64,000 nt of DNA, from the IMG/VR virus record IMGVR_UViG_3300045988_165521; one strand, written 5' to 3'. This stretch comes from a virus. The position numbers and the translations under genes were made by a program. Numbering within the stretch: position 1 is the first letter of the stretch; every line of letters begins with the position of its first letter. The notes under the pieces were generated by a model. That model had not been told where the DNA came from. It saw nothing but the letters and a program-made list of their open reading frames with translations, and did not search any database. Positions 40,386 to 59,280 of this stretch are shown in pieces.

Positions 40386-40409
40386 GTTTATTTTTTTTTA
40401 AATTTTAAT

Positions 40410-40440
40410 CCCCCCCCCTCACTAAATGTGAGGAAGGGAG
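40410..40440 (-). promoter_or_regulatory. RNA hairpin whose 3' arm is a G9 homopolymer, in the leader of the 38781..40385 gene
   Basis: The minus strand reads CTCCCTTCCTCAC ATTTA GTGAGGGGGGGGG, a 13-bp stem including G-U pairs. The C9 run lies at 40410-40418 on the plus strand. An A9 run follows (40391-40399) before the ATG at 40385. Confidence 0.5.
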
Positions 40441-40459
40441 AAATTATTATTTATTCAAT

Positions 40460-42829
40460 TTATGATCAAAATATATCAAGCTTACCGTCTGTTCCAACTT
40501 GGATAGATGAACTTGTTGATACTAATTTAGACATATCTACAGCTAAACCTCTAGAAGTACCTTCACCAGTTACCTTAATAGTATTATCGGGACTAGTAAT
40601 AGATGTAATGCCACCTGCAACAGCAGTTTTAATACTATCACTAAGAGCCTGCATACCAGCAGCGATTGTTTGATCTGCACCAATTTCAGCACCACCAGTA
40701 ATGGAAACTCCAACTTTTACAGTTGAGCCTTTTATTCCACTAAGATCCAACTTAAGACCTTCGGCTGATTTTGATAGTGCTTCATTTGAAGCTGGATCTA
40801 ACTTAACATCAATAACATTTTCTTCTGTAATTGAAACTGCATTACCAGGAGTTAATTCGTCTTGCTTACCTCCAACAGATGTTTGTAAAGATTCAATGTC
40901 AGATTTATTAGTTCTGATTTGATTTAAATCAGTATCAGAAATTAAACCTGAACCTTCAACTTTATCAACTTTGTTATTAAGCTGATTAGTAACTGTAGTA
41001 ATCTGTCCTTCTAAAGCTGTATCTGCAGCCTCTAGTTCTGTTTTTGCTGCAGAAATTGCATCATCTACTTGTGACTTTGTATAGTATCCTGAAAGATCAA
41101 TTGTACCTCCCAGTGGATCCCACTTGGCACCATCCCAAGCATAATTAGTTCCAGCAGGAGTAGTTCCATGAGCTGCAACGACATTCCATACATCACCTTT
41201 CTTATTTCCAGAAGATGGAAGTTGGTCGTAACTATCTTTAGTACCTTTATAATCAAGAGCTGCAGCCACAGAAGCTTTCAGATCATCTATAAGAGTTTTT
41301 AAAGCTTTACCTTGTGCCGCAGAGAGTGCAGCATCCGTTTTATCACTTTCAAGTGAATCAATAATCTCAACTATTCCTGCTGTATTAGGAAATGATTTTC
41401 AAGCAGCTTCGAATTGTTCTTGATTGAGAGTACCACCAACAGCAATATAAGAATTGTATAAAAAGTCTTGAACTGAATATTCATCCATGGATTCATCACA
41501 AGGATCATATCAAATCTTATCGTGCTCTGGTTCGTTATTTGGAAAATCAGATTGACATCCGATTGCTATATTTTCATCACCAGGATCTCCTTTTTCTCCC
41601 TGAGGAATTCCAAATTTAAGATTTGCATCACTAATATCTGGATTTAAATCAGTTACATAAGGTTGTGCATCTGGTGCTAATTTTTCTACTTCAGAAACTA
41701 CAGTTACTGTAGCAGGTTTTCCTTTAGGAACTTTTACATTTAAAGCTCATTCTCTAGGAGCATTAGTTTTATCAATTACTAATGACGGATTTTGATCTCA
41801 CTCAACAGTTTCAATAGTTCCTGCATTAAATCTTGGAAGAACAGAACCAGTAGAAGTAATCACTTTACTTGATTCCATAGTTAATTCCAAATGACCTTCT
41901 GCATCACTAATATTAACTGATTTAATACTATCTCCTCTTAATTCTTCTAAATAGCATAGTGTAACCCATTCACTAGTAGGATCTCCTAAATATCCCCATA
42001 GAATTCTATCATCTGTTAAATTATCAGGATCTCCAAATTTTCTAACAAGTGCAGGTGTTCTTCCAGAATCTCCTTTAGGTCCCTGAGGTCCTTGTGCTCC
42101 AGTAGCTCCAGTATTTCCCTTGTCGCCCTTGTCACCTTTGGCTTGTCCTAATTTAATTCATGATTTTGGTGGATCATTCTTATCATAAGAAACAAACCAA
42201 TATCCGTCTTCAATTTTCAATTGAGGCGTTATACCATCTTCACCGTCTTCTCCAGGAATGCCAGGTGCTCCAGTAGCTCCTGTTAAACCTTCAGCTAAAA
42301 CTCTTTGTCCACTATCGTCAAATATTCATTCAGTTTTTTCATTAATAGATACTGTTCAATAATAATGATTATTAGATGTATCCTTTTTAATGCCGATAAT
42401 AGGAGTATCTCCAGCGGGGCCTTTAAGATCACTTATTGAGGTTGAACTTGGAGGAGTATTACTTTCTTTTCAAGAAAGTATTCCGTTATTAATCTCTGGA
42501 ACTCATACTTTTCCTGTAGGTCCTTCAACTCCCGCCATTACAAAAGCTCAGAAAAGATTTGGTTTAATACCAATGATTTTATCGTTTTCTCGAACTAATT
42601 CAGGCATATTTAACGAAGATGATGTATGACTTCTAATGCAAGACAATAAAGCTCCTTCAAATGATACAAAATCTACAATATATTCGTCATTAAAATAGTG
42701 AGTATTTGTTATTCATTCTCCCGCCATCTTAAAGGAAGTTCCCTTATAGAAATCTCTTGAATTATAAGCTCCAGAATACTCTCTTGAATTTTGTAGATCT
42801 ATAGTAGGTAATATATTATTTTTCTTCAT
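40460..42829 (-). CDS. collagen-like tail fibre, 789 aa
   Basis: ATG at 42829. One frame down to TAA at 40460 (..DIF[W]S). All lines from 41270 to 42829 were checked triplet by triplet. G-X-Y runs include GDKGDKGNTGATGAQGPQGPKGDSG and GLTGATGAPGIPGEDGEDG. Confidence 0.75.
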
Positions 42830-42835
42830 AGTTTA

Positions 42836-45800
42836 TTATTTTGACCCTAATATTAAAAATGGAACACTAATACTTGTTGTTGGTACTTTGCCGTCTGCAG
42901 TTCTTACATCTAAAAAAGCTCCATTAATCCTGCCTCTTGCTGAACCATAGAACATTTTTAGCATAGCTCCATCTCATATAGGTTGTGAAAAAGCTATTGC
43001 ACTTATTGATAAAGTTCTACTATTATAAATACTTGTTAAATCTAAATTTGCAGAAAAATTTCCAGATTGACTTACAGTTAATACTAAATCAGTTCTACAT
43101 CTAGAAAAACCAGATAAAGATGGTACCCCAGATGAATTAAAATAAACTTCTCCACATGCTAAAAATGAATCACTATTATAATCGTCATAACTTTTATAAT
43201 AAAGATCTGAACGTAGCGTTCCATTTTGTTTCCATGTTTTTAACTCAAAATCTGATGTATTCTCTACTCAAATTGTTCCAACATAGTAATTATTAACTAT
43301 TGAAGATGGAACAAATTTAAATTCTAATACTCCTCCAGCTGGAAGTAAAATTTGAGAAGCATTAAAAAGAATTGGTTCATCATAACTGAATAGTAATCTA
43401 CCATTATAATAACCACAAATTTTAATAGATTCATCATCGTTTCCATTATCAAATGGATATATAAATAATTGTTTATCCGACTTATTATGAATTACTCCCG
43501 AATACGAATCATCAATATTTAATTGATATTCAGAAGCATTTACTTTAAGAGTTACATCTTCGTGTATCGTTGGCGAATATATAATTTCAGAATATAATGA
43601 ATCTAGTATATGTGGATCAGATGACTGAGTAAGACTATATTGTTTAATGTTTTGAATAATAGCATTATTAATTTTAATGTTAGTTAAATCAACACTTCCA
43701 TCACTACCAAACTTAATCTTTCCAGCAGCCATATGTCCAGCTCCAGTTCTAAAATCAAATAGTATATTTGGAGTAAACTCACCTTCTGTAGGAATTTCTG
43801 GATCAAAGTTTTGATATTGTGTAGATATTTGTCCACTTGCATCAATACCTTGTTGGCTAAACATATAGTTTCCATTAAATACAGCAGATCCAATAAGACC
43901 GTTAGCGATAATCCCAATTTTAGTATACAGCGCCTCAAATGCATCTAATTTAACTCAACTATTACTAGTATCAGTGCTAGGAGATTCATTACTGTGTAAT
44001 GTTCCTTGCCAAGTTCCTACTATGTTTAAAACATAATAGTTAGCATCATTAGAATCATATACATAAGGAGTTTTATCTGCGGTTCCTTGATATACAGTAT
44101 TAACATTATAAATACCTTCAGGATAAATTATTTGTCCTTTAGAACCATTCTCTCCATTTAATCCATTAGTTCCACTTAATTTAGTAGGAGTACTTCAACT
44201 ACCTTCAATTGTACCAACTTTATCAGTGTTACTTGTATAATTTACTCTAGCTTGAATAAACCAAATATAAGGAGTCTCTTCAGTTGGAGTTGGAACCGCT
44301 AAATCCCAACCTGTTGGCTGTCTTGTTGTTCCAGGAGTACTTGTTCCTCCATAAATAGTTGTAGTTCCTAAGCAATAACGAACTTCAATACCAATTCCAG
44401 GTAACCCATCAACTCCATCTTTACCTGCTGGACCAGGATCACCAGTAATTCCAGGTTCTCCTTTTATTTTGGTTCATTTATAGTCAGAAGGATCATCACT
44501 ATCATTTATATTATAATCTACATAAATTCCAATTCAAGCACCTGGATCTTCTCCATTGTTACCTGTAAAGGTTACACCTCCATCATTAGAGTATTTAATA
44601 TGTAGATAACTTGTTTTTCCATCTTCTCCGTTAGTACCTGGGATTCCTTGTTCTCCCTTTTCTCCTTGAATTCCTTCAAATCTTGCCCAAGTATAGTCAG
44701 AGGGATCTGTACTATCTGCTTGAGTAAAATCTACATAAGTTCCAATATATGTACTTGGAGTTTCAGTCATTTGACTTGAAGAAGTAGGGTTGGCAACAGC
44801 AGAATATTTAATATGAAAATATGTAGTTTTTCCATCTTCTCCTGGAGTTCCAGGAATTCCGTCTGTACCATTCGTACCATTTTCTCCACTTATAACAACT
44901 GGAGCAGTCCAGTTTGTATTTAAAGTATCATCAGGATTAATAGTTGCTGTAGTCATCCAGAGATATCCATCTTTAGATTTTTCAGGAGGAACCACAGACC
45001 ATCCTGAAGGAGTTCTTACTGTTGCGTTTAATGTAGGAGGATTTGAATTACTTGTATTTACAGCAAATCTAAATTCTGTAAATTTGCCATCTTGAGCTTG
45101 GCCATCTCTACCATTAACTGGTATTACTTCTGACCATTCAGTTACAAGTCCTGTTTCTCCATTAACTGTTCCAATACATTGCCACCAGTTTCCACTAGTT
45201 GTAGGATAATCTTCCCATTCAGACGGACTAGGACTATTTCCTGTAGGTTTTGATGGTTTACTATCACTTAATTTATAAACGTATGTTTTCCAATTTGGTA
45301 TTACTGCATCCTGTCCCTTTTCTCCTGTCATTTGAACAGGATCTGACCATTCTCCAACAAGAGTAGAATCTCTAAAAGATGCTGTAATTGACCATATAAT
45401 TTCAGAGGATGTGTGAATTGGAACAACTGTACTTCATACAGAACCAGGATTTGCATTAGTTTTATTTACAACAGGAGGAGTATTGACACTTCCACTCTTT
45501 GCATACATTAACTTAATACCTAATCCATCCTCTCCATTAGAACCATCAGTCCCATTTGTTCCGTCCTTGCCATTCTCTCCATCTTTACCATCAGCTCCTT
45601 TAGGTAATCCAAAACTAAATTTAAATATATCTCCTTCTAAAACTACATTAGCATTAGCTTCAGTTGTTGAAGAAACACTAGCTACTTCTGCATCAAAATT
45701 AGGAATTTCTCCGCCTTCAGAAATAGTTTTTCATTCTGTATCATAATCTGCATCAGATTTTTTAACTAATGCTTGACCAGTAGTTCCTCCAGGAATTACT

Positions 45801-46309
45801 CCAATTCCATCAGAGCCATTCTTTCCATCAGTTCCATTTTGCCCAGGATCACCTGTAGCTTGGCCTATATCTTGTCAAGTTTGACCTTTATCCATTGAAA
45901 GTAGTCAACGACCGTCTTCAATTTTTAATTGTGGAGTAATACCATCAGTTCCACTTGGTCCGATAGGACCAATATCGCCTTTATCTCCTTTTTGACCTTT
46001 ACCACTATTTCCCATAATAAAAGCTCAATACGGATTAGATTCTACACCAACAATTATATCGTCTTTATAAATTAGATTCGGCTTATTTCATTCTGATGAT
46101 AAATGACCTCTTAGACAATACAATAAAGCTCCTTCACAAGATATAAAATCAATAATATGTTCATCGTTGAAATAATGAGTGTCTGGAGTTCAGGCTCCTG
46201 CCATCTTAAAAGATGTTCCTCTATAAAAATCTCTAGAACTATACATTCTATAATAGTCTTGAGAATTTATTGCATTATCTATGATTACATTAACATTAGA
46301 TCTCTTCAT
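42836..46309 (-). CDS. collagen-like tail fibre, 1157 aa
   Basis: ATG at 46309. Pieces 44534..45331 and 43268..43864 are in frame. All gaps were checked. TAA TAA at 42833-42838. There are six G-X-Y blocks. The N-terminal ~60 aa are homologous to the N-terminus of 40460..42829. Confidence 0.75.
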
Positions 46310-46493
46310 AATATTGAATTATTTTGATTATTTCATTATTAGTTGGATTACCGTGTTCAATATAATCAATTGCATTAATTAATTCGTTCATTGTAAATAA
46401 TGCTTTTTTATCAGGTAAATGCCCAATATTAATATTAATTAATTCTTGAACAAATATTTTATATAATTCATTATATAGAATTTCCACAACCAC
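46296..46493 (-). CDS. hypothetical small protein, 65 aa
   Basis: Intact ORF ending in TAA. Confidence 0.45.
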   Translation of the reverse strand: MVVEILYNELYKIFVQELININIGHLPDKKALFTMNELINAIDYIEHGNPTNNEIIKIIQYYEEI

Positions 46494-47253
46494 AACTATT
46501 ATTTATATTACCTAATTCCTCTCCACATAAAGAATTACATGAAGATAAATTATCTAATATTCTTTGTGCTTCTGTAAAGTTCCCCATATCTTTTAGATAA
46601 TCAAACACATACATAGCACTTAATAAGAAATCTCTGCGATTCCTTAAATTTTCATCTGTTTTACATTTATCATAACTACATATTTTACTGTTATTCAACA
46701 GTAATTGCCGTTGCAAATATACTAAACATCTTTGTAATTTGCAAACACTAAAGACATTTTTTATTGGACAATAGAAAGTTTGTGAAGCCTTATTTTCTTG
46801 CACAAATTCATATGCTTCTTTATAATCAATAATTTCAGAACTTTCAATTACTTCGTCTAATGTATATCCTTCCTGGTCTGTAATATTAGATTTATAAAGA
46901 TCTCCATTAAAAAAAAATAATTCATCTATTAAATTAATATATTTATCAGGCTCTTTATCGTCTTGAAAATGCATTAATTGTGGAACTACTAATTTATAAT
47001 AAGAATAAGTTCCATCAACATTTAATGTAAATTCAGATGCAAATCTACTTAAATAGTGTCCTCGATTATGTAATTCCTTTCTTATTTTTACTGATTCTGG
47101 GAGTAAATTTTCATCAGTATTATAAGATAGAAATTCTAACATTATATACTGACTTAAATCTACACCTAAATAATCACTATTATCTACAGCAATTAATTTA
47201 CAATCAGATCTAACAATTACATCAATATTTATTTTTTTATTCATATTATACAA
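46471..47253 (-). CDS. Cys-rich hypothetical protein, 260 aa
   Basis: Intact TGA-free ORF directly after the portal gene. The C-terminus is ..CNSLCGEELGNINNSCGCGNSI. Confidence 0.6.
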   Translation of the reverse strand: MYNMNKKINIDVIVRSDCKLIAVDNSDYLGVDLSQYIMLEFLSYNTDENLLPESVKIRKELHNRGHYLSRFASEFTLNVDGTYSYYKLVVPQLMHFQDDKEPDKYINLIDELFFFNGDLYKSNITDQEGYTLDEVIESSEIIDYKEAYEFVQENKASQTFYCPIKNVFSVCKLQRCLVYLQRQLLLNNSKICSYDKCKTDENLRNRRDFLLSAMYVFDYLKDMGNFTEAQRILDNLSSCNSLCGEELGNINNSCGCGNSI

Positions 47254-49790
47254 CTTGTTTTATTTTATCATTATAAGGATTAGTATCAACTGTTTCTGCA
47301 GCTTGAATTTGAACTTGTTGCTGTTTTGTTTCAATAAGTTTATCGTTATAATCCTTATCGTTTTTAACTTTTTCTCTTTCAATAGCTACTTTTTCAGCTT
47401 CAAGTTGTAGTCTAGCTTGACTATTTTGTTTAAGTTGATTTTGTGATTGACCTAATTCCCTTTGTAATTGTTCATTTTGTTTCTGTAACTGTTGCAGATT
47501 TTGTTCATATTGCTGAAGTTGTTGCTGCAACTGAGAAACACTATTATTTTCTTCCTTCTTAACAGCAGTAGCTTTAGCTACATAACGTTTAAGTTCGGAC
47601 ATACTATTGGCAGTTGCAATACTTACTGCCATATCGGGATCTGACATTCCAGCTTTAATTAATTCAATATTAAGAGCCTTTACAGTTTCCATATCTTTAA
47701 AAGACTTAGAACTATCCTCAATATGTAAATCAAAATCTGTAAGTGTATAATGTTCAGGAAGTGCAGTAAATATTCTTGAATATTTATTACCTAACACAAT
47801 AGTACCAGTAATACCATTTGGATATACTAATTTAGCTAAATTAAGCATATCATAATTAGCTTCTTTATAAATTATATCCATGGTTTCAAAATATTGTTTA
47901 GTTAATAAACCTGACATTTTAACTCCAAGTTGAACATTAGATACAGCATCTCTCTGTTCATATTGAGCTAACCTCTCAGGTAACACTCCTGTAATTGAAG
48001 AAGCTTGTTGTTCTACAGCTTGAATAGCTAATTGAATACCTTGAATAGCTTGAGCTTTAACTGTATCATCAAATCCATTAAAAATAGTATTAGGCATACC
48101 TTCATTACCTTCCTCCTTACTATTTATTAATGCTAAGCCATTCTTTTTATATGCTTGTCAAGCTTTAACTCGATCTGTTAATTTTTCACCTAAAAACGAA
48201 GGAATAAAAGAAACATCCATCCAATCTCCAACTCCTCCTGAAGAAGCAATAAGATTATCTCTAAAATATATAAGTAAATCATATTTCATTGTTTATTCGA
48301 TATAGGTCGTTAATCTATATCCGTCTTTTTGACTGCTGCATGTCACCATGCAGATTAGACTATATCATACAAATTTGATTTAAAATTAATTCAAATAAAT
48401 TCTGTTTCATTATATTTCATAACTACTTATAATTAATTTTAAATTAAACTTGTCCCCGCACTTCCACTTACTTAAGTGTACTCCTTTCGGATAGTCGTTG
48501 AACTTTCAAAGATATTTCTATCTAAGCTTAGCTGCTGATTGTCTTAAATTTACTATTATTCAATTTAAGGTTTTCCAGCAATTCACGGGGTTTATACAGG
48601 ACTCATATAATTTAATCCTGTAGGTCCATAGTATGTGCTATTAATGAATATGGATCTCCATTTTTATCTAAGAAAAACATTCCATTAACAGATAATCTGC
48701 ATCTACTAGGACAATCTGCACTTCTTACAATATACTTTGATTCTCCACGAGTAATGTATACTTCTGAACCAATTTTTACTCCTTCATGTCTTGTTAATTC
48801 TCCAGTTTTATAATCTGCTTCAATTCATTCAACTTCATATACAGGAATAAGATGATTTTTTATAGGTTCTATTGAATCATAATCTCCAGGTCATCCTGGA
48901 TGTGCTTCAAGTCCTGCAAGAATACCTGTATGTAAATTATCCGCTCGTAAATTAGGTTCAGCAGGTTTACCAACATATCTAACCAAATAAGTAGGAGATG
49001 TTGAATCAGCAGTTTGTTGCATATCTCTAATTTTCTTAGCTGCTTCTGTAGTTAATTCTGATCTGAATGTATTTAAGATATCCTCTCTTGACATTCATTT
49101 TCTAATAACAACTCTCTTAGAATCTGCAAGATAAGGAGAATTTGGATTACGTTCTATAAATGTATTAACGGGATTTAAAATTTCAATATTGACATTTGAA
49201 TTACTTTCTGTAGGTTTTACTCTATAGTAACAAGTACCTGTAACAAGTAAATCTGTAAGTAATTCTGCCATTTTACGTTTTAAATCGATGTTTCTTGATT
49301 GTCTTAAATAATCAAGAATATTTTGTGCAGCAATTTCATATTCCGAAACAAAAGATTGATCAATATCTTGTTGAATTGAGTTGATTTCTTTTTCAATAAA
49401 AGGATCATTTACAATTTCTTTATTTTCAATAATAGCTGCAATAATGTTATTCTTTAAATACTGTTGCAAATAATTAAATACTTCTGCACTAATTTTAAGT
49501 TGCTTTTCTCTCATTATATTTGAAACAGTCTTTTCATCTTTGCAAGATACTTTTAAATCTTGATTTAAACCTAGATATTCTCCAACTAATACATCAATAT
49601 GTTTCTTAATTAATGGTGTAAAACTAACTGATGTAGGAGTCCCAATTCCGTAATTTTCTTCTAGGTGTTTGAATTGATCTGCATCTCTACGACAATGATA
49701 ATATCCATAAGCTTTTCTTATAGCAACTTTATCATATACAAGATTACCTATCGCATCATTAATCTTCTTTACTTCATTCTCTATCACCAT
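47246..49790 (-). CDS. portal protein, split: exon 1 49790..48615, exon 2 48286..47246 (738 aa spliced)
   Basis: Exon 1 (392 codons) and exon 2 (347 codons including the stop) are each open apart from TGA. Joining them gives ..AHTMDLQD|KYDLLIYFRDNLIASSGGVGDWMDV.. with no frame change. The location next to TerL and the size fit a portal protein. Confidence 0.7.
48287..48614 (-). mobile_element. ORF-less group I self-splicing intron (328 nt) in the portal gene
   Basis: The 5' exon ends in U. The exon sequence ACAGGAU pairs with the intron guide GUCCUGU 12 nt downstream (6 Watson-Crick pairs plus a terminal U-G wobble, forming P1). The intron ends in G. Hairpins have GNRA loops (cugcaug-GUGA-caugcag, ucc-GAAA-gga) and there is a terminal 7-bp hairpin gauauag/cuauauc. 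Stops occur in all frames. Confidence 0.7.
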
Positions 49791-50067
49791 ATTCTAATAC
49801 TATATATTGATTTCCTTCACCTGGAGTAGTCATTTCTCCAGAATAATATTTTGTTCTATCTAGTTGTCTGTTTCTAAGTTCTTTTTCAAGAAATTCGAAA
49901 AAACCTTCTTCATCACCTTCATAGACTAAAACTAGTGGAGCTTTTCATTGATTTAAATCTAAACTTAATTTCCATTGATTACCATCTATAGTTAATGTAA
50001 AGTCTCCAGTGTAATATGCACACATAGCCTTTTCAATTATTTCATATACTTTATCAACGAGTTCCAT
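49759..50067 (-). CDS. small hypothetical protein (102 aa) between TerL and portal
   Basis: ATG at 50067. Two in-frame TGA, no TAA/TAG. It overlaps the TerL end and the portal start. Confidence 0.4.
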
Positions 50068-52360
50068 TCTTTTGCGGTATTACTCCATATTCTTTATAGC
50101 CTTTTTCATTAGTGAACCATCCAATATTTTCTCATTCTTTTGCTAATTTATCTTGAGCGGCAGGTCGTATATTCATTAGCTCTTCATCTGCAATTTCCGC
50201 CATTTCCATGCTCGCGATAATATCAAACTTTCGTTTATTTTCTCAAGAATATTTTAACAATTGCTCAAGCATTTCATCAATATCAATTGAATAACAGTAA
50301 TCATTAACAAAATTATTAATTAATTCAAGACCATGCTTGATAATAGCTTCTGTAGCTGGTACACCAATCATTTGTGAGTTGCCTCTTTTCATATCTCCAA
50401 GAGTTGAAGCAGGACGTTTCATAAATAGACTATCTTTCTTTTTTTCTTTAAAATATGTAACAATACTAATCTTAGTATGTTCAAGTAGTGCTTTACAATT
50501 ATATCATACTAATAACTTCATTGCTACATCATACGCTTCTCGAATATCTCGAGGACGATCTTTATAGATCGCAACATATTTCGCTTCTTGTAATCCATAT
50601 ATACGTTTCTTAATAACTATACAGAAATCAGATACATCTGTTGAGGTAGAAGAATCTCCAGAACCTTGGTCAATAGAGTCTATTCCTGCAACATATAAAT
50701 TTTTTAATACAAGACCATCTTCGTCACGAAGTGGCCTTTCATATATAGCAATTTTACTATTTGGATTATTTATAACTTTTACTTTTGTTAAATCAGGAGT
50801 ATCTCCAGAACGATCTCATAATAATGATACATACTCTGGTTTTAATCCTGCTTTAAATATCCTAATTTGGGTTAATCTATCTGCAATTGCAATTGAATCA
50901 AAGATATTTTCACCCTGCTTATATAATGCTTCATTTGGAATAAAACAGTGCTCTGCACAATAATCAAGTAGGTCTTTGCCACTTAATTTTTTACGTTCTT
51001 CCTCATAAAACTTTTTAAATTCTTCAGATTGTGTAACGCCTCTTGTATCTAAGAATTCTTCTCGTAAACTAAACTTATGAGCTGGAATAAAGAAAGCTGT
51101 TAATTGTGGTTTTCTATCTTCTGTATCATAGTTTTTATATGGAAGTACATTATACCCTTCTGGTTTTGCAAAAATGTTTGATAAACCTTCAAGTGCCATA
51201 TCATCACCACCTGTACCTAAAGCAATACGTGTTCCAAAATGATAACCACCAAGCTCAACAAGAGCATTACCTTGAATCCAACTTTTAGTTAAATATTTAT
51301 TAGATCCTGCTTCTTCATAGATTAATCTGTCGACACGATCACCACGAATTTTATCAGATGTATCAGCAATTACTGAATCAATTTCTGACATTCAACCATA
51401 TTCAACTCCATCAGGAGTAACTTGAGATGCACGCTTAGTATCTGCATTATTAACTTTTTGTCGTAGGTGGCGCATACCTCCATTAGTATTCATGTCTAAT
51501 CAGTTTAACTGTTTTCAACATTTAGTTTTTAAAGGAGTAAGTTTACCTTCTGCAGCACAAGTTAATAAAGAACGATAACCTCTATTAGTTATATAAGGCC
51601 TTACTGCTAAACAAGCAACAATCTCAGATAATCCAATACCACGAGCTTTTAATATAGCTACATCTTTGTGTAGTCTTTCAGCCATTTCAACATAATGAAA
51701 GAATTCATATTGTTTAGCTAGAAATGTAGGAAACTTTTCATTACGACCAGCACCACCTCTAGCTCCTTCAGAAATAACTTCCATTCTATAGAAATTTAAA
51801 AAGAAATAATGATCTCCTGTAATTCTATATTTACCAACTGTATAACCTTCAGTACAACGTTTATATTGTTCTCTTCAGAAATCATTATAAGGCTTTGAAT
51901 CTGCAGGATATTCAGTATATGATCCAGTTCTATCATAAATTTGAGCTAGTTCATTAAAAGGAGTAGGATCAAAATCTAAACCTTGAGTTTCATTAATTGG
52001 GCGGTATCCAGTTAATTCATATGATAACTCTGGATCAAAGTAAAGTACGTCTTCGGTGACCGCCACATCTCACAAACCATCTCTCTTTTTATAAAAATCA
52101 GTTGCAGTATACTCAAATTGTTCTGTAGTATCTTCTTTCTGATCTCCAAGCATTTCTTGTAATTGCTTTTTTAATTCTTCTTCAAATTTATCTGAAAAAG
52201 ATTGAGGAGTTGGTTCAGGACCTTTTATTGATTCTCTAAGCTCTTTATATTTCTCTTTAGTTGTTTTCTTTCTTTTGACTTCTGATTCTTCTTTATTTTT
52301 TATCTGTTCAAGCATTTTTTTACGTGCTTGAGACATTGAAGATTTAATTGTCTTTACCAT
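50051..52360 (-). CDS. terL: terminase large subunit, 769 aa
   Basis: Track ORFs 52070..52360, 51875..52066, 51515..51784 and 50816..51391 are all in one frame. Every gap was checked triplet by triplet and contains only TGA. TAA at 50051. TerL-like motifs are YFFLNFYRM, KARGIGLSE (Walker-A region) and GTGGDD. Confidence 0.8.
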
Positions 52361-52362
52361 AC

Positions 52363-52944
52363 TTAACTATCCATAAATCCAGGTTTTACATCACCTCTAT
52401 TTTTAGCATTGGATTGCATTTGATCTTTTTTATAATTAAGCTCAAGTTCTTTTAATTTATCTGCCATAACTCCAATACTAGCAATATCAGCTAATACATC
52501 TTTTGCCTTAAAGATAGGTTTACTATTATTATCTCTCTCTTCAAGGTCTATATTATCTAAAGATACTCTCATTTTTTCAAGAGTTCGATACGCTGTTTTT
52601 ATAAGGCTAAGTATTCTAGAAGAATCTTTGATTTCCATGTATTTTCTAACTGCTGCATGGAAGACTGGATCGTCTCATTCTTCTTGAGTTAATCCAGAAT
52701 CTTCCATAGCTGCATCATGCTTTTGTCTCTCTAAGTATTGTTGATATGGACTTTTTCAGTCACAAAACAACCATATATATTTAAATTCTCTTCAAGCTCT
52801 TAACCTCTTTGTTCCTTTTGGATCTTCTTTACATTTATTTCTTTCTATATCTCACAGCGCTGCAAACTCCTTTATTAATAGTATTTCGTATTCGTTAATC
52901 TTTAGATTACATGTTACATTATCATAAAGGAATAAATCTAGCAT
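52363..52944 (-). CDS. hypothetical protein upstream of TerL (possible small terminase), 193 aa
   Basis: ATG at 52944 (TAATG overlap). There are 4 in-frame TGA. TAA at 52363. The function is positional only. Confidence 0.4.
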
Positions 52945-54464
52945 TACTTTTTATTTAATTTTTCTTTTTCCTCTTTTGTAGGTTTGTAATTATTGTCTTG
53001 AACCCTCTGAAGCGCATTTCCTGAAGGAGTATATACTCCAGAAGTACGATAATATAAGGTATCTCCAGGCATAGTTTGAGTACCTAAGTACGGATTTTCA
53101 AAAGTTGGAGCAATTACATGTCTACGAATAGAGTCGATTAATTGATTATTTGTTCCTGGAATCGTACCTGCAATAATCATTTCTCTATCTATTACACCTC
53201 TATCTGTTAGATTACCTACATTATTAACAACAGTGTCTCGTTTTATTTTAGGAATTATTTTTCCTTCAGCAAATTTTTGTGCTCCAAACTTTGATTGGAG
53301 TTCTTTATATCTATTACTTACAGGAGACGACCGTCTCAATCCTAAAAATCCAAGAATTCCAGAATCATCTATATTACTATCTACTCTACCTCCAATGCCA
53401 TTGTGTATATAAAGAGTATCCTGTTTATTTGGAGATACTAATTCTGATGTTGTAATATTATTTCTAGTAATTTGTCTTAAACCAACACCGTTAGGTAATA
53501 CAGTTTGATTAACTCCAGGTTTTAAACTTCTAGCAACTTGTGCTCCATTATGTACTCATTTATTAGGACCATATTCAAATAAATCTACTCCATGAAATTC
53601 CTTACGAGCTTTATCAGATTTTCTTTGAGGAGTTTTACCCCCTTCTTGGAAAAATGAACCAAGGTTTCTTGGATTGATGCGGTGTTCAACAGGAATAGAT
53701 CCTAAAGTAGCATTATTTCCATAATTGACCGACATACTTCTAGGTCCTACATATCTACTATCAAACCTATTAGGATTACCTAAATTAGATGCCACTATGT
53801 AATCACTATATGAAGGATTAGTTATAACTAATTCTTCATTCATGTTTGTAGGTCTAATTCCTTTAGCTGCAGACATTCCAGCTTCTTCTGCTCCAGAAAT
53901 ATTTCTTGATCCAAGATTAGATTGTGGAAGTTTTGGTTTCTTAGGAGCAGGTCTTGTTGGAGCTAATTGAGTTCCATATAATTTTCCATTTCAAGTAAAG
54001 CTAGTAAGTCCTGCACTTCTAGCTGCTGCAAAAGCTTGATTGAAATTACCTTGGGATAAATCAGGAGTAACATTAGTTTGTACATTTACTTTAGGAGTAA
54101 TTCCAGTTTTCATAGATACTCCAAAAGATAAAGGTTGAGAAATAACTGAACCTTCAGTTTTTGTTACTTTAGGTTTAGAATTATCTCCTACAATATTTTT
54201 CATTGCAGCTGCTTTGACTTCTCTTCTACTTAATCCAAGATCTTGATCCTTAATAGCAGATTTCATATTTCTATATGCAGTGCGATTGAATTTAGAAGAT
54301 TTCTTACCTTCTTTTACAACCTTCTTATTTTCTTTACGCTCATTCTTTGCAGATCCTCCATCTTTAAATTTATTAACAAGATAAGCAAGTTTGCCTCCTT
54401 GTTTAAACATTCCTGCAGATTGCTCTTGTTTAAATTGATTAATCAATCCAGAAATAGTATTCAT
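52944..54464 (-). CDS. hypothetical protein, 506 aa, with three [F][KQ]xGG motifs
   Basis: Track ORFs 53991..54464, 53556..53876 and 52944..53339 are in one frame, joined by TGA. The gap 53877-53990 was checked codon by codon. Confidence 0.65.
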
Positions 54465-54605
54465 ACCATCTTCTGTTTGTGCTAATTCATTTAGCTTTCC
54501 TACAATTTCTTCAGGAGTTTTATTTTGGAATTCTTCTACTTTAGATGGAAGTCATTGAACAAATTGCATTAATTCTTCTTGTTCCATGATGATATTGTTT
54601 TATTG

Positions 54606-54794
54606 TTAAATATCTGTTGTAGAGCAAGTAATTTCAAATTTATTATATTTAGGGTCTAAAGGTTGCGAAGGATAAATCCAAATAGGAGTAGTATTTGGAG
54701 TAGTTGTAATTGTATAATTTTGTCCTTCTAAAAACTCTTTAATTTCAGCTACAGTACCTTCTATTATTATACCATTGTTTAAATAAGCTTTCAT
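54606..54794 (-). CDS. hypothetical small protein, 62 aa
   Basis: Intact ORF ending in TAA. Confidence 0.5.
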   Translation of the reverse strand: MKAYLNNGIIIEGTVAEIKEFLEGQNYTITTTPNTTPIWIYPSQPLDPKYNKFEITCSTTDI

Positions 54795-54796
54795 AA

Positions 54797-55054
54797 TTAC
54801 TTGTTCTTATAAAATTTTAAATCTTTTGTTGAGAATACTGCTTCACGTAAAACCATATTCTTATCAAATCATCTACATTTAATACCTTTAAAGATATTAG
54901 TTATTTCATTACCATGTTTGTATGATTGTGTAATTTTTTCTACTACATACATAACAGGAGATGTAAGATCACCATGTTTTAAAGTGACTACATCTCCTGG
55001 GTTAAAAAACGTTTTTTCAATTTCGTTTATCATATTATTCTTTGTCCTTTTCAA
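54797..55054 (-). CDS. small DUF2158/YodC-like protein, 85 aa
   Basis: PGDVVTLKHGDLTSPVMYVV motif. One in-frame TGA (54869). TAA at 54797. Confidence 0.45.
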
Positions 55055-55571
55055 TTACTCGACATATAATGTTTTGTTCACTGATAGCGTAATAACCCAT
55101 ATTATTGAATGGAACAGGTACTACAGAATTTCTGTAATATATATCCTCTCCAGGTTTTACGTATTTACATTCGGGTCCTGCAGAAATAACAGTACCACAT
55201 GCAATAAATTGTTCAGCTCTCTCCATCTCACCAGTATCATCAGACTTATATGTATCTGCAAAAAGATCTCCTGGAAGAATCAAACCTGAAGCACTTGTTT
55301 TAATTTCTCTATAAGGATTTTTTTCAAATGGTTTTATAATAACAGTATATCCAGTTGCAGCTACCTTCATTTTAGATGCATCTTTAGTACCTTTATTTAA
55401 TTCAAGTAATCTATTTGCTGTTAAAAGCTGTTCTTCCTCCATTTTTTTATTATGAGCAGCAATTTCCTCAGGAGTTAATTCCTTTGTTTCATGTTTAACG
55501 TTTGCTCCCATAAGATGAACTCCCATTTCTTGCATGTGTGCATTTCCTAAAAGATTTTTTCCCATAATCAT
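55035..55571 (-). CDS. GroES/Gp31-like co-chaperonin-fold protein, 178 aa
   Basis: The C-terminal ~100 aa follow the Hsp10 pattern (TVIIKPFE..KTSASGLILPGD...GTVISAGPECKYVKPGEDIYY...YYAISEQNIICRVIE). TGA-free. Confidence 0.5.
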   Translation of the reverse strand: MIMGKNLLGNAHMQEMGVHLMGANVKHETKELTPEEIAAHNKKMEEEQLLTANRLLELNKGTKDASKMKVAATGYTVIIKPFEKNPYREIKTSASGLILPGDLFADTYKSDDTGEMERAEQFIACGTVISAGPECKYVKPGEDIYYRNSVVPVPFNNMGYYAISEQNIICRVIEKDKE

Positions 55572-55594
55572 TTACATTTTTTAAATTTAACTTA

Positions 55595-55801
55595 TTACCA
55601 TTTATTGTTATAGCATTGTTCGTCTTCAACTCTTACTTTTGCATCTAATACGCATCCACAAAGATCACAAATATCTTGTCCACATAATTTTGTTTTATAC
55701 GAGCAAGTGCTACAAATTGCCAGTCTTTTTTCTGCTAATTCAGATTTTTTATTAAATATTTTTCTATACCATCCAATAATTATATTCTTAACTTTCTTCA
55801 T
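55595..55801 (-). CDS. Zn-ribbon (CxxC...CxxCGC) small protein, paralog 2
   Basis: MKKVKNIIIGWYRKIFNKKSELAEKRLAICSTCSY..CDLCGCVLDAKV..C..KW. The start was chosen at ATG 55801 by analogy with paralog 1. Confidence 0.55.
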   Translation of the reverse strand: MKKVKNIIIGWYRKIFNKKSELAEKRLAICSTCSYKTKLCGQDICDLCGCVLDAKVRVEDEQCYNNKW

Positions 55802-55940
55802 AATATGCTTTACAAAAATTACCTGATCCAGTGTACTTGTCATTACTTAAATCTCCAGTATGCTTGTGTTTTCCTATATAATATCTGCCACTCGGAAATC
55901 CGCAAAGAAAATGTATTTTATAAATATAATATATTACCAT
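55788..55940 (-). pseudogene. GIY-YIG homing-endonuclease remnant (50 codons, N-terminal half only)
   Basis: MVIYYIYKIHFLCGFPSGRYYIGKHKHTGDLSNDKYTGSG.. carries the GIY and YIG elements but stops before the rest of the catalytic domain. Confidence 0.5.
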
Positions 55941-56206
55941 TTCATTACTATACATTTTGCTGCAGGCAGTTTTGTTTTTCGATTAAGAGCACATCCGCAT
56001 CCTTTTCTATATCCAATTTTTGGTCTATCTGAATAGTCTGTTTTATTATTTTCATTAATATATAATCTAGGATTACATATCGGACCCATTGGTGTTTCTT
56101 TGTATAATGGACATTCTTTACAAATTGCTAATCTTTTTTCAGATAAGTCTTCATTTTTATTAATTGCTTCATTAACATGTCCACTAATAATATCTATTAG
56201 TCCCAT
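55934..56206 (-). CDS. Zn-ribbon (CxxC...CGC) small protein, paralog 1, 90 aa
   Basis: ..SEKRLAICKECPLY..C..GCGCALNRKTKLPAAKC..KW. Intact ORF. Confidence 0.6.
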   Translation of the reverse strand: MGLIDIISGHVNEAINKNEDLSEKRLAICKECPLYKETPMGPICNPRLYINENNKTDYSDRPKIGYRKGCGCALNRKTKLPAAKCIVMKW

Positions 56207-56208
56207 AA

Positions 56209-58137
56209 TTAAAATACTATAGGTTTATCTAAATCTAATTCAGATTTAATCTTAACGTCTCTTTTATAATGTTTAAGCATTCTTTCAACATCTGATTTTA
56301 AATAATCACATTCATGTTCTGAAATATGATTGTTGTGATCAATATGAATTAATACTAATTTTTTAATATTAAAGTTTGGATTAATTTTTTGTAGTAAGTA
56401 AGCATATAATGATAACTGCAACGAATAATGATAAAAATTACAATCCATAATATTATCCATTGGGAATTTCATCATAGTTCTACTTTTAGTAAATTTATTA
56501 TAAAATGATTCTTTTTCTAATTTCTTATTAGTATTATGTGTAACTATCATTGAATCACCGAATAAAAACGTGTGTGATGGACTGTCAACTTCTAAGCATT
56601 GCGTTGCTACTGTATCAACTCTTTCTACAGATATAATATTTCTAAATGTATTCTTATTTTTAGATGGGAAGTCGATATCTTGATTTCTTACTAAAAAGGG
56701 ATTTAATCCATCAGTTGAAAAACATACATCTCATCCTTTAAATATCTTTCCATTACATTTTTTATCTACTTCAAAAACAGTAGCTTTTATGCCTAATGTA
56801 CTTACTAACCTTAATAAATCTTCAGCTTGTCATTTCTGAGTAGTTCCCATTACAAATCTTTTTCTAGATTCATGATAGTAACCATCAGTATCCATTAACC
56901 CTCTAAGCAAATCAAGTCTTTGTTGATAAGAGGCTCGCATATATAAATCAGGTATAAACTTATTATTTAGTATTCCTAGATCGTTAAGTTTTTTTCTAAT
57001 ATTATATATAGTTCGCATTTCCGCAGATTTTCCGTCAGAAAGATCTCCTCCAAAAGTATATCCTCTATTTTCTATTTCTTCCCATACTTTAGAGTTTATA
57101 TTAGTGATAATTCCACATGACTTAGAGCCATCTCCTAGTCAACATCCCAGTACATAAGGATCTATAGGAAGTTCTATTTCTGGAAGATTTAGAGGATTTG
57201 CGTTCATTATTTTTGGGATATTGTACGAGGTTCTTGGTTTATCAATTAACCACTTTGCAATATCTTCTGTGGTCATAACTACTTCCCTAAATGTTTTATC
57301 TATATTCCTAAAAGAAATAAGTCATCTATGTTCATGGTCTGCCACAATCGACTCTCCGTTATCAAAAGTTATTTTAAAACATGGATTGTAATGGATATCT
57401 GATTTATGTAACACTTTAGTTATATTTCCTTCTTTATCAAATATCTCTTCTCCCTCCTTTATATCCTTAATAGTTGTCCATCCGTTTTTAGTTGGAATTT
57501 TTGTATCTAGAGGGAGTCCTTTATAATCGTATATATAAATATCATTACCGTCTTTAATAAGTAAGTCAAGTTGTCCTGCAATTCTTAATAAACCATCTTC
57601 TGATTTATAACTAATCATAAATTCAGGATAAACTCCTTTTTCTAAATCTAATTGATAATATCCTTTCTTGCAAGTAAATTTTCCTCCAAGACCAAATTTC
57701 TTAAGATCTTGTTCTTCAGATTGATAATACATATTCTCAAATTGAGCATGTATTTTTGTTCCTCTTTCACAAGATTTATTTCTTTCTACTTCATACGATT
57801 GAAGTATTTCTGCCCGTTTATTTTCAAACTCTTCTTCGTTGATATTTAACTTTTCAAGTAAAGTTGGATTTCAACGTTTTGTATTTAGTAATGTAGTTTT
57901 AACAACTTTAAAAATTTCTGGTTCTACTAAAGCTTCGCAAGCTTTATATGCAGATCAGAATGCTGAATCAAACTCATTAACATATTTATGTATCAATGTT
58001 GTTACAGATACATAAGGCTTATTATCATATTTATCTAAGTACAGATGTTTTGCATCTGAATAAATAACATCTTCTGTTTCTTTGTCTACTTGATATCCAT
58101 TAACATATTTTTCCTTTACATTACTTAATTTTGGCAT
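56209..58137 (-). CDS. PD-(D/E)XK (RecB/Cas4-like) nuclease precursor containing an intein; extein about 313 aa
   Basis: One frame from 58137 to TAA at 56209. All gaps were checked and contain only TGA. Extein motifs are ERGTKIHAQFE, GQLDLLIKDGNDIYIYDYK|TNKK (the DYKT box is restored after intein removal) and YHYSLQLSLYAYLL (QxxxY). Confidence 0.75.
56533..57519 (-). mobile_element. intein (329 aa) with LAGLIDADG homing-endonuclease domain; class-3-type signature
   Basis: It starts GLPLDTKIPTKNGW (block A with Gly1 instead of Cys/Ser). Block B is GESIVADHEHRW (His at B10, Trp at B12). LAGLIDADG motifs are LGC[W]LGDGS and LLRGLMDTDGY. Block F is TQCLEVDSPSHTF (Cys where class 1 inteins have Asp). 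Block G is MIVTHN followed by Thr+1. Confidence 0.8.
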
Positions 58138-58822
58138 TGTTTATTATATTTGGTTTTATATATTGTTCTATTATTGCTCCGTATCTAATTAAATTCTCTT
58201 TAATAGTACTATCTTCATATCCTACTTCGTTTTCTTTTTCTCAAGTGAATCCTAAAATTCCTGTTGGAGTTCCAGTATCATCTTTTAGTAGAGTACATGC
58301 TAAATATTCTACATTATTTTTTCCAAATCGATCATACATTACATGATCTATTTGTTCTAAAGTAGTTAAGTTACCGATAAACTGATTATGTGTTTTTAAA
58401 TAATCAGGAAGATTTAATCAACTAAGATGAAAATTATCATATTGTTCTTTGATTGAGTGTGCGTTTTCTCCACATAACTCAAATCGCATAGAACCATATA
58501 ATCAATCAGAAATACCATTGTGATATTGTATTACTCATACTCTATCTGCACCTGACATATATAATAGTCTTGGAAGTAAATCTTTAACTTTCTTATCATC
58601 ATCAATCCTATTTAACAATTCTTGTGAATGTTTCTGACTCATATATTCTGAATACTTATCAAATAAAAATGTTGGATCATAACATATTCTCAAAGTAATA
58701 CTTAACATAAACATGATGATTAAGGCTTTAAAGATACTACATACTCCATAATCTCTAATATACTGTAGGATAGTCCCCAGTCATGAGAGTCCTGAGCTTA
58801 AATCATGTTGTTTCTTAGCCAT
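58121..58822 (-). CDS. membrane-anchored hypothetical protein, 233 aa
   Basis: ATG at 58822. There are 5 in-frame TGA. All triplets were checked. TAA at 58121. N-terminal TM segment SIFKALIIMFMLSITL. Confidence 0.6.
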
Positions 58823-59276: not shown

Positions 59277-59280
59277 AGGT

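What the first reader, a model, noticed from the sequence alone, without database searches (positions are those of the whole stretch)
48287..48614. ORF-less group I intron splitting the portal gene
The portal reading frame stops making sense for 328 nt, where all frames contain stops, and then resumes exactly in phase. Removing 48287..48614 joins ..MDLQD to KYDLLIYFRDNLIASSGGVGDW.. Group I hallmarks can be read directly. The last exon base is U. The exon sequence ACAGGAU pairs with the intron sequence GUCCUGU 12 nt downstream, with the splice-site U in a U-G wobble (P1). The intron ends with G. It also contains hairpins capped by GNRA tetraloops (GUGA, GAAA), a terminal 7-bp hairpin, and a possible P7 (GUCU/AGAC). 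No homing endonuclease is encoded.
Basis: partly seen in the sequence, partly recalled or inferred. Interest (0 to 1): 0.7.

Follow-up and report, generated by a model that had tools for sequence, protein, structure and literature searches.

The report
Self-splicing intron in phage portal gene
A 328-base self-splicing (group I) intron interrupts the essential portal gene of a gut crAss-like phage; it has lost the homing-endonuclease gene that close relatives still carry, which is a well-documented but ordinary example of a known kind of mobile element.

Summary
On the minus strand, 48287..48614 interrupts a crAss-like portal gene (47246..49790, read with TGA=Trp). Removing it gives ..TMDLQD|KYDLLIYFRDNL... 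Six relatives that are 94-96% identical, and many more distant ones, encode this stretch without interruption.

The insert matches Rfam Intron_gpI at 56.9 bits (gathering score 50, E 9e-14), but only when a short stretch is searched. I mapped P1 (U.G at the splice site), P3-P9, P7.1/P7.2, P9.1/P9.2, the terminal G and P10. Twelve diverged introns at the same portal site keep 97.9% of pairs, and 30 of 56 pairs show compensatory changes.

P7 is GACUAU/AUAGUC.

New here:
- The intron is a deletion derivative. One near-identical relative has 806 extra bases in the P8 loop encoding a 288-aa endonuclease-like protein. The window keeps that protein's first 8 codons and last 13.
- One intron-bearing relative carries a roughly 500-bp donor-like patch around the intron, which indicates homing.

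Splicing itself is inferred; I found no RNA evidence. Gut crAss-like and jumbo phages are already known to be intron-rich, so this is a new member of a known kind.

The parts
48615..49790 (-). Portal gene exon 1 (392 codons, 3 in-frame TGA=Trp), ending ..MDLQD
   Evidence: Code-4 translation. PHROG portal families 6547 and 156. Matches crAss001 gp20 portal 7QOG, E 9e-13.
48287..48614 (-). Group I intron, 328 nt, no complete ORF
   Evidence: Rfam RF00028 at 56.9 bits, E 9e-14. Absent from six close relatives at exactly this point. 99-100% identical in about 20 IMG/VR contigs.
47246..48286 (-). Portal gene exon 2 (346 codons plus stop), starting KYDLLIYFRDNL..
48596..48621 (-). P1: exon ACAGGAU plus intron U (48621..48614), loop L1, and internal guide AGUCCUGU (48603..48596). 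U48615 pairs with G as the splice-site wobble.
   Evidence: The six central pairs are invariant in 12 related introns.
48584..48590 (-). P3 5' strand CCCCGUG (partner 48454..48460, UGCGGGG)
   Evidence: 7 of 7 pairs in all 12 introns; two pairs show C-G to U-A compensation.
48533..48580 (-). P4 (UGCUGG 48575..48580 with UCAGCA 48533..48538) enclosing P5 (CUUAAAUU/AAUUUAAG, 48543..48569)
   Evidence: P4 has three compensatory pairs in L111. P5 compensations are visible in L088 and L090.
48502..48532 (-). P6 (GCU/AGU) with P6a hairpin AGAUA-GAAA-UAUCU (48510..48523)
   Evidence: Relatives keep the GAAA loop on entirely different stems.
48491..48496 (-). P7 5' strand GACUAU (partner AUAGUC 48358..48363). 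It forms a pseudoknot with P3 and is the presumed guanosine-binding helix.
   Evidence: The helix is nearly invariant, so covariation gives no evidence for or against it.
48465..48490 (-). P7.1 (CC-GAAA-GG, 48483..48490) and P7.2 (CACUU-AAGU-AAGUG, 48465..48478), the peripheral hairpins typical of subgroup IA
   Evidence: All five P7.2 pairs show compensatory change.
48454..48460 (-). P3 3' strand UGCGGGG
48370..48452 (-). P8: stem CAAGUUUAAUUU (48441..48452) with AAAUCAAAUUUG (48370..48381) and a 59-nt A+U-rich loop
   Evidence: All six scored P8 pairs show compensatory change.
48397..48420 (-). Remnant of the endonuclease ORF start: ATG plus 7 codons (MKYNETEF)
   Evidence: Identical to the first 8 codons of the 288-aa ORF in L032/L091.
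48360..48396 (-). Remnant of the endonuclease ORF end (..LFELILNQICMI, stop TAG inside P7). It overlaps the P8 3' strand, J8/7 and P7.
   Evidence: 12 of 13 residues identical to the C-terminus of the L032 ORF. The deletion junction lies in the imperfect direct repeat AACAGA(A)TTTA.
48358..48363 (-). P7 3' strand AUAGUC
48299..48353 (-). P9 (CUGCAUG-GUGA-CAUGCAG, 48336..48353), P9.1 (GUC-AAAAA-GAC, 48323..48333), P9.2 (GAUAUAG-loop-CUAUAUC, 48299..48321)
   Evidence: Five of 7 pairs in P9 and 7 of 7 in P9.2 show compensatory change.
48287..48298 (-). 3' tail GAAUAAACAAUG ending in the terminal G (48287)
   Evidence: Related introns end in the same ..GAA..A(A/C)(U/C)G motif.
48279..48284 (-). 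P10: exon-2 bases +3..+8 (AUAUGA) pair in register with L1 UUAUAU (48605..48610)
   Evidence: Relatives with a different first exon-2 codon (AAG, CGA, CGU) have matching changes in L1.

Best explanation
The 328 bases at 48287..48614 (minus strand) are a group I self-splicing intron in the portal gene of a TGA-recoded, crAss-like gut phage. It is the phage IA type, with P7.1/P7.2 and no P2.

Proposed mechanism:
- After transcription the RNA folds into P1-P10.
- A free guanosine bound in P7 attacks the phosphate after U48615, which sits in the U.G wobble of P1.
- The terminal G (48287) then enters the same site.
- The freed exon-1 end attacks the 3' junction, which is held by P10.
- This joins ..MDLQD to KYDLL.. 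and gives mRNA for a 738-aa portal protein.
- The TAA that follows the 5' splice site immediately stops ribosomes on unspliced RNA.

The intron is a degenerate mobile element. Its ancestor carried, in the P8 loop, a 288-aa endonuclease gene with CapR/DUF723 zinc-ribbon modules and a T5orf172/GIY-YIG-like domain. That gene moved the intron into intron-less portal genes by double-strand-break repair. Here 806 bases of it were deleted between short direct repeats, leaving a ribozyme that can still splice but cannot move by itself.

Shown: the boundaries, the fold, family membership, the deletion origin, the presence/absence polymorphism, and a co-conversion patch.

Inferred: splicing in vivo, endonuclease activity and its target.
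For: - Model match: Rfam RF00028 full-length match, 56.9 bits against a gathering score of 50, E 9.1e-14.
- Sequence similarity: the intron core matches group I introns of Staphylococcus, phiKZ-like, T4-like, Bacillus and other phages by blastn.
- Exact boundaries: L004/5/6/8/25/43 (94-96% nt identity) and more distant portals read ..LQDK(Y/L)DLL.. without interruption.
- Recurrence: the same 328-nt intron, 99-100% identical, is in about 20 independent IMG/VR contigs, so it is not an assembly error. Genomes that rely on this single portal gene are evidently viable.
- Structure: in 12 diverged introns at the same site, 97.9% of 672 pair cells are standard pairs. Thirty of 56 pairs change on both sides. 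None of 500 shuffles reaches this, and structures slid by 1-3 columns pair at only 34-46%. P10 covaries with the first exon-2 codon. The fold z-score is -5.95.
- Deletion origin: L032/L091 carries the same intron (98-99% identical) plus 806 nt encoding a 288-aa ORF. The window keeps codons 1-8 and the last 13.
- Nature of the ORF: it hits PHROG 681 'endonuclease' at 3e-17. The AlphaFold model has pLDDT 92. It matches phage CapR-homology, T5orf172 and GIY-YIG proteins in BFVD at E about 1e-12.
- Mobility: intron-bearing L044 matches intron-less L004 far from the site (0-1 differences per 100 nt). From about -300 to +200 around the intron it matches the window instead.
- Repeated ORF loss: other portals have introns of 266, 278, 360 and 588 nt, or 1108-1188 nt with intact ORFs, all at this one site.
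Against: - There is no RNA evidence. The spliced-junction 31-mer is absent from the viral and metagenome contig collections, and I could test no transcriptome.
- Whole-window Rfam scans at both thresholds return nothing. The hit depends on searching a short stretch. I attribute this to Infernal's speed filters on A+U-rich sequence, but I did not prove it.
- P7 and most of P1 never vary, so covariation says nothing about them.
- The covariation alignment was assembled from helix strands that I picked by anchors, and the P9 register was chosen by best pairing. The counts therefore lean towards the structure.
- The endonuclease assignment rests on profile and predicted-fold matches. There was no significant hit to a solved structure. 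The Pfam hits were weak: DUF723 reached at best 21.5 bits (cut-off 20.9), in the L075/L118 homologue, against 16.3 bits for the L032 ORF. MUG113 gave E 0.08.
Confidence: 0.93

Rival explanations
1. The portal is made as two separate polypeptides, with no splicing. The N-terminal half (392 aa) ends at the TAA at 48612..48614. The C-terminal half starts at the ATG at 48287..48289. The intervening RNA would be a dead relic.
For: A stop codon directly follows exon 1, and an in-frame ATG forms the last three intron bases. No RNA data exist.
Against: - All intron-less homologues encode one continuous protein across this point, inside one of the most conserved blocks (..LQDKYDLL..RDNLIA..).
- The ribozyme core is under clear structural selection, with compensatory changes in 30 of 56 pairs. 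A relic would not show this.
- The terminal AUG is not universal. Homologous introns end in ACG or CCG, which leaves exon 2 without a start codon.
Confidence: 0.03
2. The insert is a non-splicing insertion that inactivates the portal gene, so the window comes from a defective phage or prophage remnant.
For: The endonuclease gene inside the intron is already decayed.
Against: - The same interrupted gene is found in about 20 contigs from different samples, several of 100-173 kb, with both exons intact and 97-99.8% identical.
- Every core helix is intact, and the intron is 99-100% conserved.
Confidence: 0.02
3. The insert is another kind of intervening element: an intein, a group II intron, or an assembly chimera.
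For: None beyond the interruption itself.
Against: - All three frames contain stops, so it cannot be an intein.
- No Rfam group II match was found, and 328 nt is too short for one.
- Independent assemblies reproduce the sequence.
Confidence: 0.01

Closest known systems
Phage subgroup-IA2 group I introns (T4 td/nrdB/sunY, Bacillus SPO1 DNA polymerase, Staphylococcus Twort/K, phiKZ-like phages)
   Same: - Same core, with the conserved AAUUGC(U/G)GGAAA and GAUAUAGUC segments and the extra P7.1/P7.2 and P9.1/P9.2 hairpins.
- Direct blastn similarity of 76-83% over 50-250 nt.
- Also located in a conserved block of an essential gene, with a stop codon right after the 5' splice site.
   Different: - It lies in a portal gene of a crAss-like, TGA-recoded phage.
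- It has no P2 (J1/3 is AUAAA).
- The ancestral ORF sat in the P8 loop and ran into P8 and P7.
- I inferred subgroup IA2 from anatomy and similarity. I did not test it with a subgroup-specific model.
Lysin-gene intron of Streptococcus thermophilus phages and its three deletion derivatives (Foley et al. 2000, J Virol 74:611, as cited in PMC8541194)
   Same: One insertion site in a phage population holds a full intron with an endonuclease ORF, shorter ORF-deleted derivatives, and intron-less alleles.
   Different: The gene, host phylum and endonuclease family all differ. I know that work only from its title in a reference list and from memory.
Intron-rich crAss-like phages of the Delta and Zeta groups (Yutin et al. 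2021, PMC7886860) and Jug jumbo gut phages (PMC12880540)
   Same: - Gut Bacteroidota-type phages with many group I introns in core genes.
- Genomes of 145-192 kb in Zeta, against 160-177 kb for relatives of this window.
- Neighbouring lineages switch between TGA, TAG and the standard code (PMC7886860).
- Jug phages have short ORF-less introns, about 206 nt on average, and a fragmented portal gene. Metatranscriptome reads support splicing there.
   Different: - Yutin et al. found introns through their endonuclease domains, so ORF-less ones like this would be missed.
- The text I could read names MCP, PolB, primase, ATP_43b and TerL, but not the portal.
- Membership of this window in the Zeta group is inferred from its features, not tested by phylogeny.
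Homing-endonuclease life cycle (invasion, fixation, ORF decay, loss; Goddard and Burt 1999, from memory)
   Same: All stages coexist at this one site: empty sites, intron with ORF, intron with truncated ORF (588 nt), and ORF-less introns (266-360 nt).
   Different: The setting is phage populations rather than yeast mitochondria. Precise intron loss was not demonstrated.

Membership tests
Group I intron (Rfam RF00028) | Covariance-model score at or above the curated gathering score | tested here: met
   56.9 bits against 50, E 9.1e-14, model positions 1-253 of 253, on 48100..48800. Whole-window scans miss it.
Group I intron (Rfam RF00028) | P1 formed by the 5' exon and an internal guide sequence, with U.G at the 5' splice site | tested here: met
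   ACAGGAU/GUCCUGU, with U48615 paired to G. The U.G is present in 12 of 12 related introns.
Group I intron (Rfam RF00028) | Terminal G at the 3' end, and P10 with the 3' exon | tested here: met
   G at 48287. There are six in-register P10 pairs. L1 changes together with the first exon-2 codon in relatives.
Group I intron (Rfam RF00028) | Conserved core P3-P8 with a P3/P7 pseudoknot, supported by covariation | tested here: met
   P3, P4, P6 and P8 are 94-100% paired, with compensatory changes. None of 500 shuffles reaches the observed values. P7 is present but invariant, so it is uninformative.
Group I intron (Rfam RF00028) | Removal restores an uninterrupted host gene | tested here: met
   The spliced product matches continuous homologues residue for residue across the junction.
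Group I intron (Rfam RF00028) | Guanosine-dependent self-splicing | not testable with these tools
   This needs in vitro transcription with GTP, or RNA-seq. The junction 31-mer was not found in the contig collections.
Subgroup IA2 (phage type) | P7.1 and P7.2 between P7 and P3', with P9.1/P9.2 extensions | tested here: met
   CC-GAAA-GG and CACUU-AAGU-AAGUG at 48465..48490. P9.1 and P9.2 lie at 48299..48333. More distant introns at the same site lack P7.1.
Subgroup IA2 (phage type) | Best match to a subgroup-specific model (for example GISSD or the Selles Vidal 2025 models) | not tested
   Only the general Rfam model was available. The nearest blastn hits are phage introns.
Mobile (homing) group I intron | Encodes a homing endonuclease | tested here: not met
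   The window holds only 8 N-terminal and 13 C-terminal codons of the ORF. The near-identical intron in L032/L091 and diverged ones in L109, L111, L113, L115, L118 and L120 carry intact ORFs of 285-297 aa or more.
Mobile (homing) group I intron | Presence/absence polymorphism at one site, with co-conversion of flanking exon sequence | tested here: met
   Six intron-less relatives at 94-96% identity. L044 is a mosaic with a donor-like patch from about -300 to +200.
Intein | In-frame insertion translated with the host protein | tested here: not met
   Stops occur in all three frames, starting with TAA at the first intron codon.

The most novel reading that the evidence does not exclude
The endonuclease-less intron may not be mere debris. 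It may be kept because it protects the phage. An occupied portal site cannot be cut by the CapR/T5orf172-type endonuclease that co-infecting relatives still express. Under this reading, ORF-less introns would act as immunity alleles in competition between phages.

Separately, the 288-aa ORF may be a new family of intron-encoded homing endonuclease. It has DUF723/CapR zinc ribbons and a T5orf172-like domain, and no solved homologue. Its reading frame runs into the ribozyme core and stops at a TAG inside P7. It also contains in-frame TGA codons, so it could only be made once the phage's recoding is active.
Probability: 0.25. Interest if true: 0.55.

Novelty: new member of a known kind. Interest (0 to 1): 0.35.

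Why it matters
Annotation is the main practical point. Gene callers using the standard code see this portal as five or more fragments, because it has four TGA codons and an intron. Endonuclease-based intron searches would miss it, and so did whole-window Rfam scans here. Portal trees and marker-gene counts for crAss-like phages would therefore be distorted.

Biologically, one 3-bp site in an essential virion gene shows every stage of the homing-endonuclease cycle among closely related gut phages. It includes a visible co-conversion tract and two different endonuclease families in the same intron backbone. That makes it a convenient natural system for studying intron-driven exchange and competition among abundant human-gut phages.

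It does not change what is known about group I introns.

Tried and rejected
- Whole-window Rfam scans at the gathering and E-value thresholds found nothing. Only the 701-nt search found the intron.
- I looked for more introns in the window. Only one co-located pair of the P7 motifs GATATAGTC and CAACGACTA exists, and it is this intron. Rfam on the two largest intergenic gaps, 34350..35000 and 10600..11500, gave only weak hairpin-type hits.
- No tRNA or suppressor tRNA gene is in the window.
- A straight MAFFT alignment of the 12 introns (A1, 474 columns) misaligned the variable hairpins. I replaced it with a fixed-length assembly of helix strands (A2).
- I did not build a covariance model of my own. 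The full-length model would have exceeded the time limit, and the motif searches made it unnecessary.
- Sequence searches of the endonuclease against the PDB, as a single sequence and as a 7-sequence profile, and a Foldseek search against the PDB, gave nothing significant. Pfam gave only weak or borderline DUF723 and MUG113 hits.
- Exact searches for the spliced-junction 31-mer in viral and metagenome contigs found nothing.
- tblastn of the two endonuclease types against the window found only the two intron remnants, so this 64 kb has no free-standing copy.
- The supplementary text of Yutin 2021 held no statement about a portal intron.
Full report
**The observation**

The portal gene lies on the minus strand. 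Read with TGA as tryptophan, its frame runs from 49790 to 48615 and ends ..ACT ATG GAC CTA CAG GAT. A TAA follows at once. All three frames then carry stops for 328 nt. The frame resumes at 48286 with AAA TAT GAT and continues to 47246. Joining the two parts gives a 738-aa protein. This protein hits PHROG portal families 6547 and 156 and the solved portal gp20 of phage crAss001 (7QOG, E 9e-13). The four in-frame TGA codons sit where homologues have tryptophan. Across the window, 41 long ORFs hold 137 in-frame TGA codons against 97 TGG.

**Is it a group I intron?**

Whole-window Rfam scans found nothing at either threshold. A scan of 48100..48800 gave a full-length Intron_gpI match at 48336..48624 on the minus strand, at 56.9 bits (gathering score 50) and E 9.1e-14. 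I attribute the difference to Infernal's speed filters, which the tool description says loosen as less sequence is searched.

Three independent lines agree with the match:
- blastn matches the intron core to group I introns of Staphylococcus, phiKZ-like, T4-like, Acinetobacter, Bacillus and other phages.
- The RNA folds much better than its shuffles (z = -5.95).
- The unconstrained minimum-energy fold already shows P1, P3, P4, P5, P6a, P7.1, P7.2, P8, P9 and P9.1.

**Boundaries**

Two faecal-phage contigs at about 46% portal identity (L001, TAG-recoded; L002, standard code) read ..LQDKYDLL.. and ..LQDRYDLL.. without a break. An IMG/VR scan gave 74 portal loci.
- About 20 contigs carry the same 328-nt insert at 99-100% identity.
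- Six contigs at 94-96% nt identity (L004, L005, L006, L008, L025, L043) have no insert and read GAT|AAG across the exact point.

The boundaries 48614 and 48287 are therefore exact, and the 'two natural polypeptides' alternative fails.

**Anatomy**

- P1: exon ACAGGAU plus intron U, paired with AGUCCUGU (48596..48603). U48615 forms the U.G wobble.
- There is no P2 (J1/3 is AUAAA).
- P3: CCCCGUG with UGCGGGG.
- P4: UGCUGG with UCAGCA.
- P5: 8 bp.
- P6: GCU with AGU, carrying a GAAA-capped P6a.
- P7: GACUAU (48491..48496) with AUAGUC (48358..48363).
- P7.1: CC-GAAA-GG.
- P7.2: CACUU-AAGU-AAGUG.
- P8: 12 positions, one of them an A/C mismatch, with a 59-nt loop.
- P9: 7 bp with a GUGA loop.
- P9.1: GUC/GAC.
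- Tail: GAAUAAACAAUG, ending in the terminal G.

P7.1/P7.2 and the nearest sequence relatives point to the phage IA (IA2-like) type. This is an inference; I had no subgroup-specific model.

**Covariation**

A pattern search for the 5' end of the intron found further portals interrupted at the same LQD|K/RYD site. Their introns are 266, 278, 360, 588, 890 and 1108-1188 nt long. I extracted the helix strands of 12 distinct introns by conserved anchors and reassembled them at fixed length (alignment A2).
- Of 672 pair cells, 97.9% are standard pairs.
- 30 of 56 pairs change on both sides.
- None of 500 shuffles reaches any of the measures.
- Structures slid by 1-3 columns pair at only 34-46%.
- P7.2, P8, P9 and P9.2 are almost wholly compensatory, and P3, P4 and P6 partly so.
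- P7 and the centre of P1 never vary and are uninformative.

One caveat applies. I chose the strands, and I chose the P9 register by best pairing, so the counts lean towards the structure. P10 also covaries: exon-2 starts AAAUAU, AAGUAU, CGAUA and CGUUAU face L1 sequences AUAU, UACU, UAUCG and AUAACG, all in register.

**Origin of the ORF-less state**

L032/L091 (IMGVR_UViG_3300045988_175455) has the same intron (98-99% identical) with 806 extra bases in the P8 loop. The extra bases encode a 288-aa ORF. The ORF starts MKYNETEF, contains one in-frame TGA, and ends ..LFELILNQICMI at a TAG that lies inside P7.

The window keeps codons 1-8 (48397..48420) and the last 13 (within 48360..48396). The junction lies in an imperfect direct repeat, AACAGA(A)TTTA. 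The ORF-less intron is therefore a deletion derivative.

The different lengths and end-points in other lineages indicate several independent deletions:
- 266, 278 and 360 nt with no ORF.
- 588 nt keeping only the C-terminal 102 aa.

L109, L111, L113, L115, L118 and L120 keep intact homologous ORFs. L124 instead carries a LAGLIDADG-like, TAG-recoded ORF at the P7.1 position.

**What the ORF is**

It hits PHROG 681 'endonuclease' (3e-17) and PHROG 559 'HNH endonuclease' (1e-7). Pfam gives only DUF723 and a weak MUG113 hit. At least 120 unnamed homologues exist in the large protein collection, about 100 of them with DUF723 as their only precomputed Pfam domain. An AlphaFold model built on 44 sequences has pLDDT 92.4. 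It has no significant match to solved structures. In BFVD it matches phage proteins named CapR-homology, zinc-ribbon, T5 Orf172 and GIY-YIG at E 1e-12 to 1e-9. I read it as a zinc-ribbon DNA-binding region plus a GIY-YIG-superfamily-like nuclease, with moderate confidence.

**Mobility**

Differences between the window and the intron-less alleles pile up around the site, at 13-19 per 100 nt from -100 to +200 against 0-8 elsewhere. The intron-bearing L044 is a mosaic:
- Beyond about -300 and +200 it matches intron-less L004 (0-1 and 0-2 differences per 100 nt respectively).
- Inside that span it matches the window.

This is the pattern expected from double-strand-break repair with co-conversion, or from an equivalent recombination that carried the intron in.

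**Context and novelty**

Several features fit the Zeta group of crAss-like phages, which Yutin et al. (PMC7886860) report as unusually rich in group I introns and inteins:
- The portal is distantly crAss-like.
- Relatives' contigs reach 160-177 kb.
- Neighbouring lineages use TGA, TAG or the standard code.

That study found introns through endonuclease domains and does not name the portal in the text I could read. Jug gut phages also have many short ORF-less group I introns and fragmented portal genes, with splicing supported by metatranscriptome reads (PMC12880540). A full intron alongside deletion derivatives at one site is also the situation described for the lysin gene of S. thermophilus phages (cited in PMC8541194).

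The finding is therefore real and well supported, but it is a new member of a known kind.

**What remains unproven**

Splicing itself is not shown. I found no spliced-junction sequence in the contig collections and had no transcriptome. The indirect argument is that about 20 independent assemblies carry this single, essential portal gene only in interrupted form, with a ribozyme core under evident structural selection.

Noticed in passing
window 1..64000 (all long ORFs): The whole window reads TGA as tryptophan: 137 in-frame TGA against 97 TGG in 41 ORFs. No tRNA gene lies in the window, so any suppressor tRNA must be elsewhere in the roughly 170-kb genome. Portal relatives use TAG=Gln (L001) or the standard code (L002).
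   Followed up: partly
window 48336..48624: Rfam scans of the whole 64 kb, at both the gathering and E-value thresholds, miss an intron that scores 56.9 bits when 701 nt are searched. Filtered scans of A+U-rich phage DNA can therefore under-count group I introns.
   Followed up: partly
window 34449..34908 (hairpin near 34533..34644): A 460-nt non-coding gap between two minus-strand ORFs holds a strong hairpin or palindrome. It draws weak hairpin-type Rfam hits on both strands. No intron model matches there.
   Followed up: partly
window 4178..6073, 6076..10686, 10762..11091, 12009..13352 (minus strand): Four ORFs, one of them giant (1536 aa), begin with a similar N-terminal motif: MKIKRYQNGG, MAQVIKYQQGG, MKVKKYQEGG and MHKRIKKMEIGG. 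This could be a shared targeting or processing signal of virion or ejected proteins.
   Followed up: no
L032 4380..5244 (IMGVR_UViG_3300045988_175455); proteins P0001-P0120: The intron ORF of relatives belongs to a large, unnamed protein family whose only Pfam domain is DUF723. It has a confident predicted fold, no solved homologue, and BFVD matches to CapR-homology, T5orf172 and GIY-YIG phage proteins. It contains in-frame TGA, and its stop codon lies in P7 of the ribozyme.
   Followed up: partly
L124 (IMGVR_UViG_3300012979_000429), intron at about 8033..8922: A homologous intron at the same portal site carries a different endonuclease at the P7.1 position: LAGLIDADG-like, with TAG read as sense. 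Its P8 is reduced to a GAAA hairpin. The endonuclease modules have thus been swapped on one intron backbone.
   Followed up: partly
L120 (IMGVR_UViG_3300012983_000105), 3' end of the portal intron: The only in-frame 3' junction (..GACAAUA|CGUUAUGAU) follows an A rather than a G, even though P10 (CGUUAU/AUAACG) supports that junction. This could be an unusual terminal nucleotide, a sequencing error or an impaired intron.
   Followed up: no
L078, L079, L083, L084, L089, L093, L097, L106: The exact 32-nt P7-P9 module TGATATAGTCTAATCTGCATGGTGACATGCAG is shared with group I introns that interrupt other genes in unrelated viral contigs, some with HNH-type ORFs. This suggests a widely exchanged 3' ribozyme module.
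   Followed up: partly
window 48200..48700 compared with L004, L008, L044: Exon sequence within about 200-300 nt of the intron is far more diverged from intron-less alleles than the rest of the gene. It includes amino-acid changes (Y to L, F to C, IAH to VTN) next to the site. This fits import from a distant donor, or selection for cleavage-resistant empty sites.
   Followed up: partly
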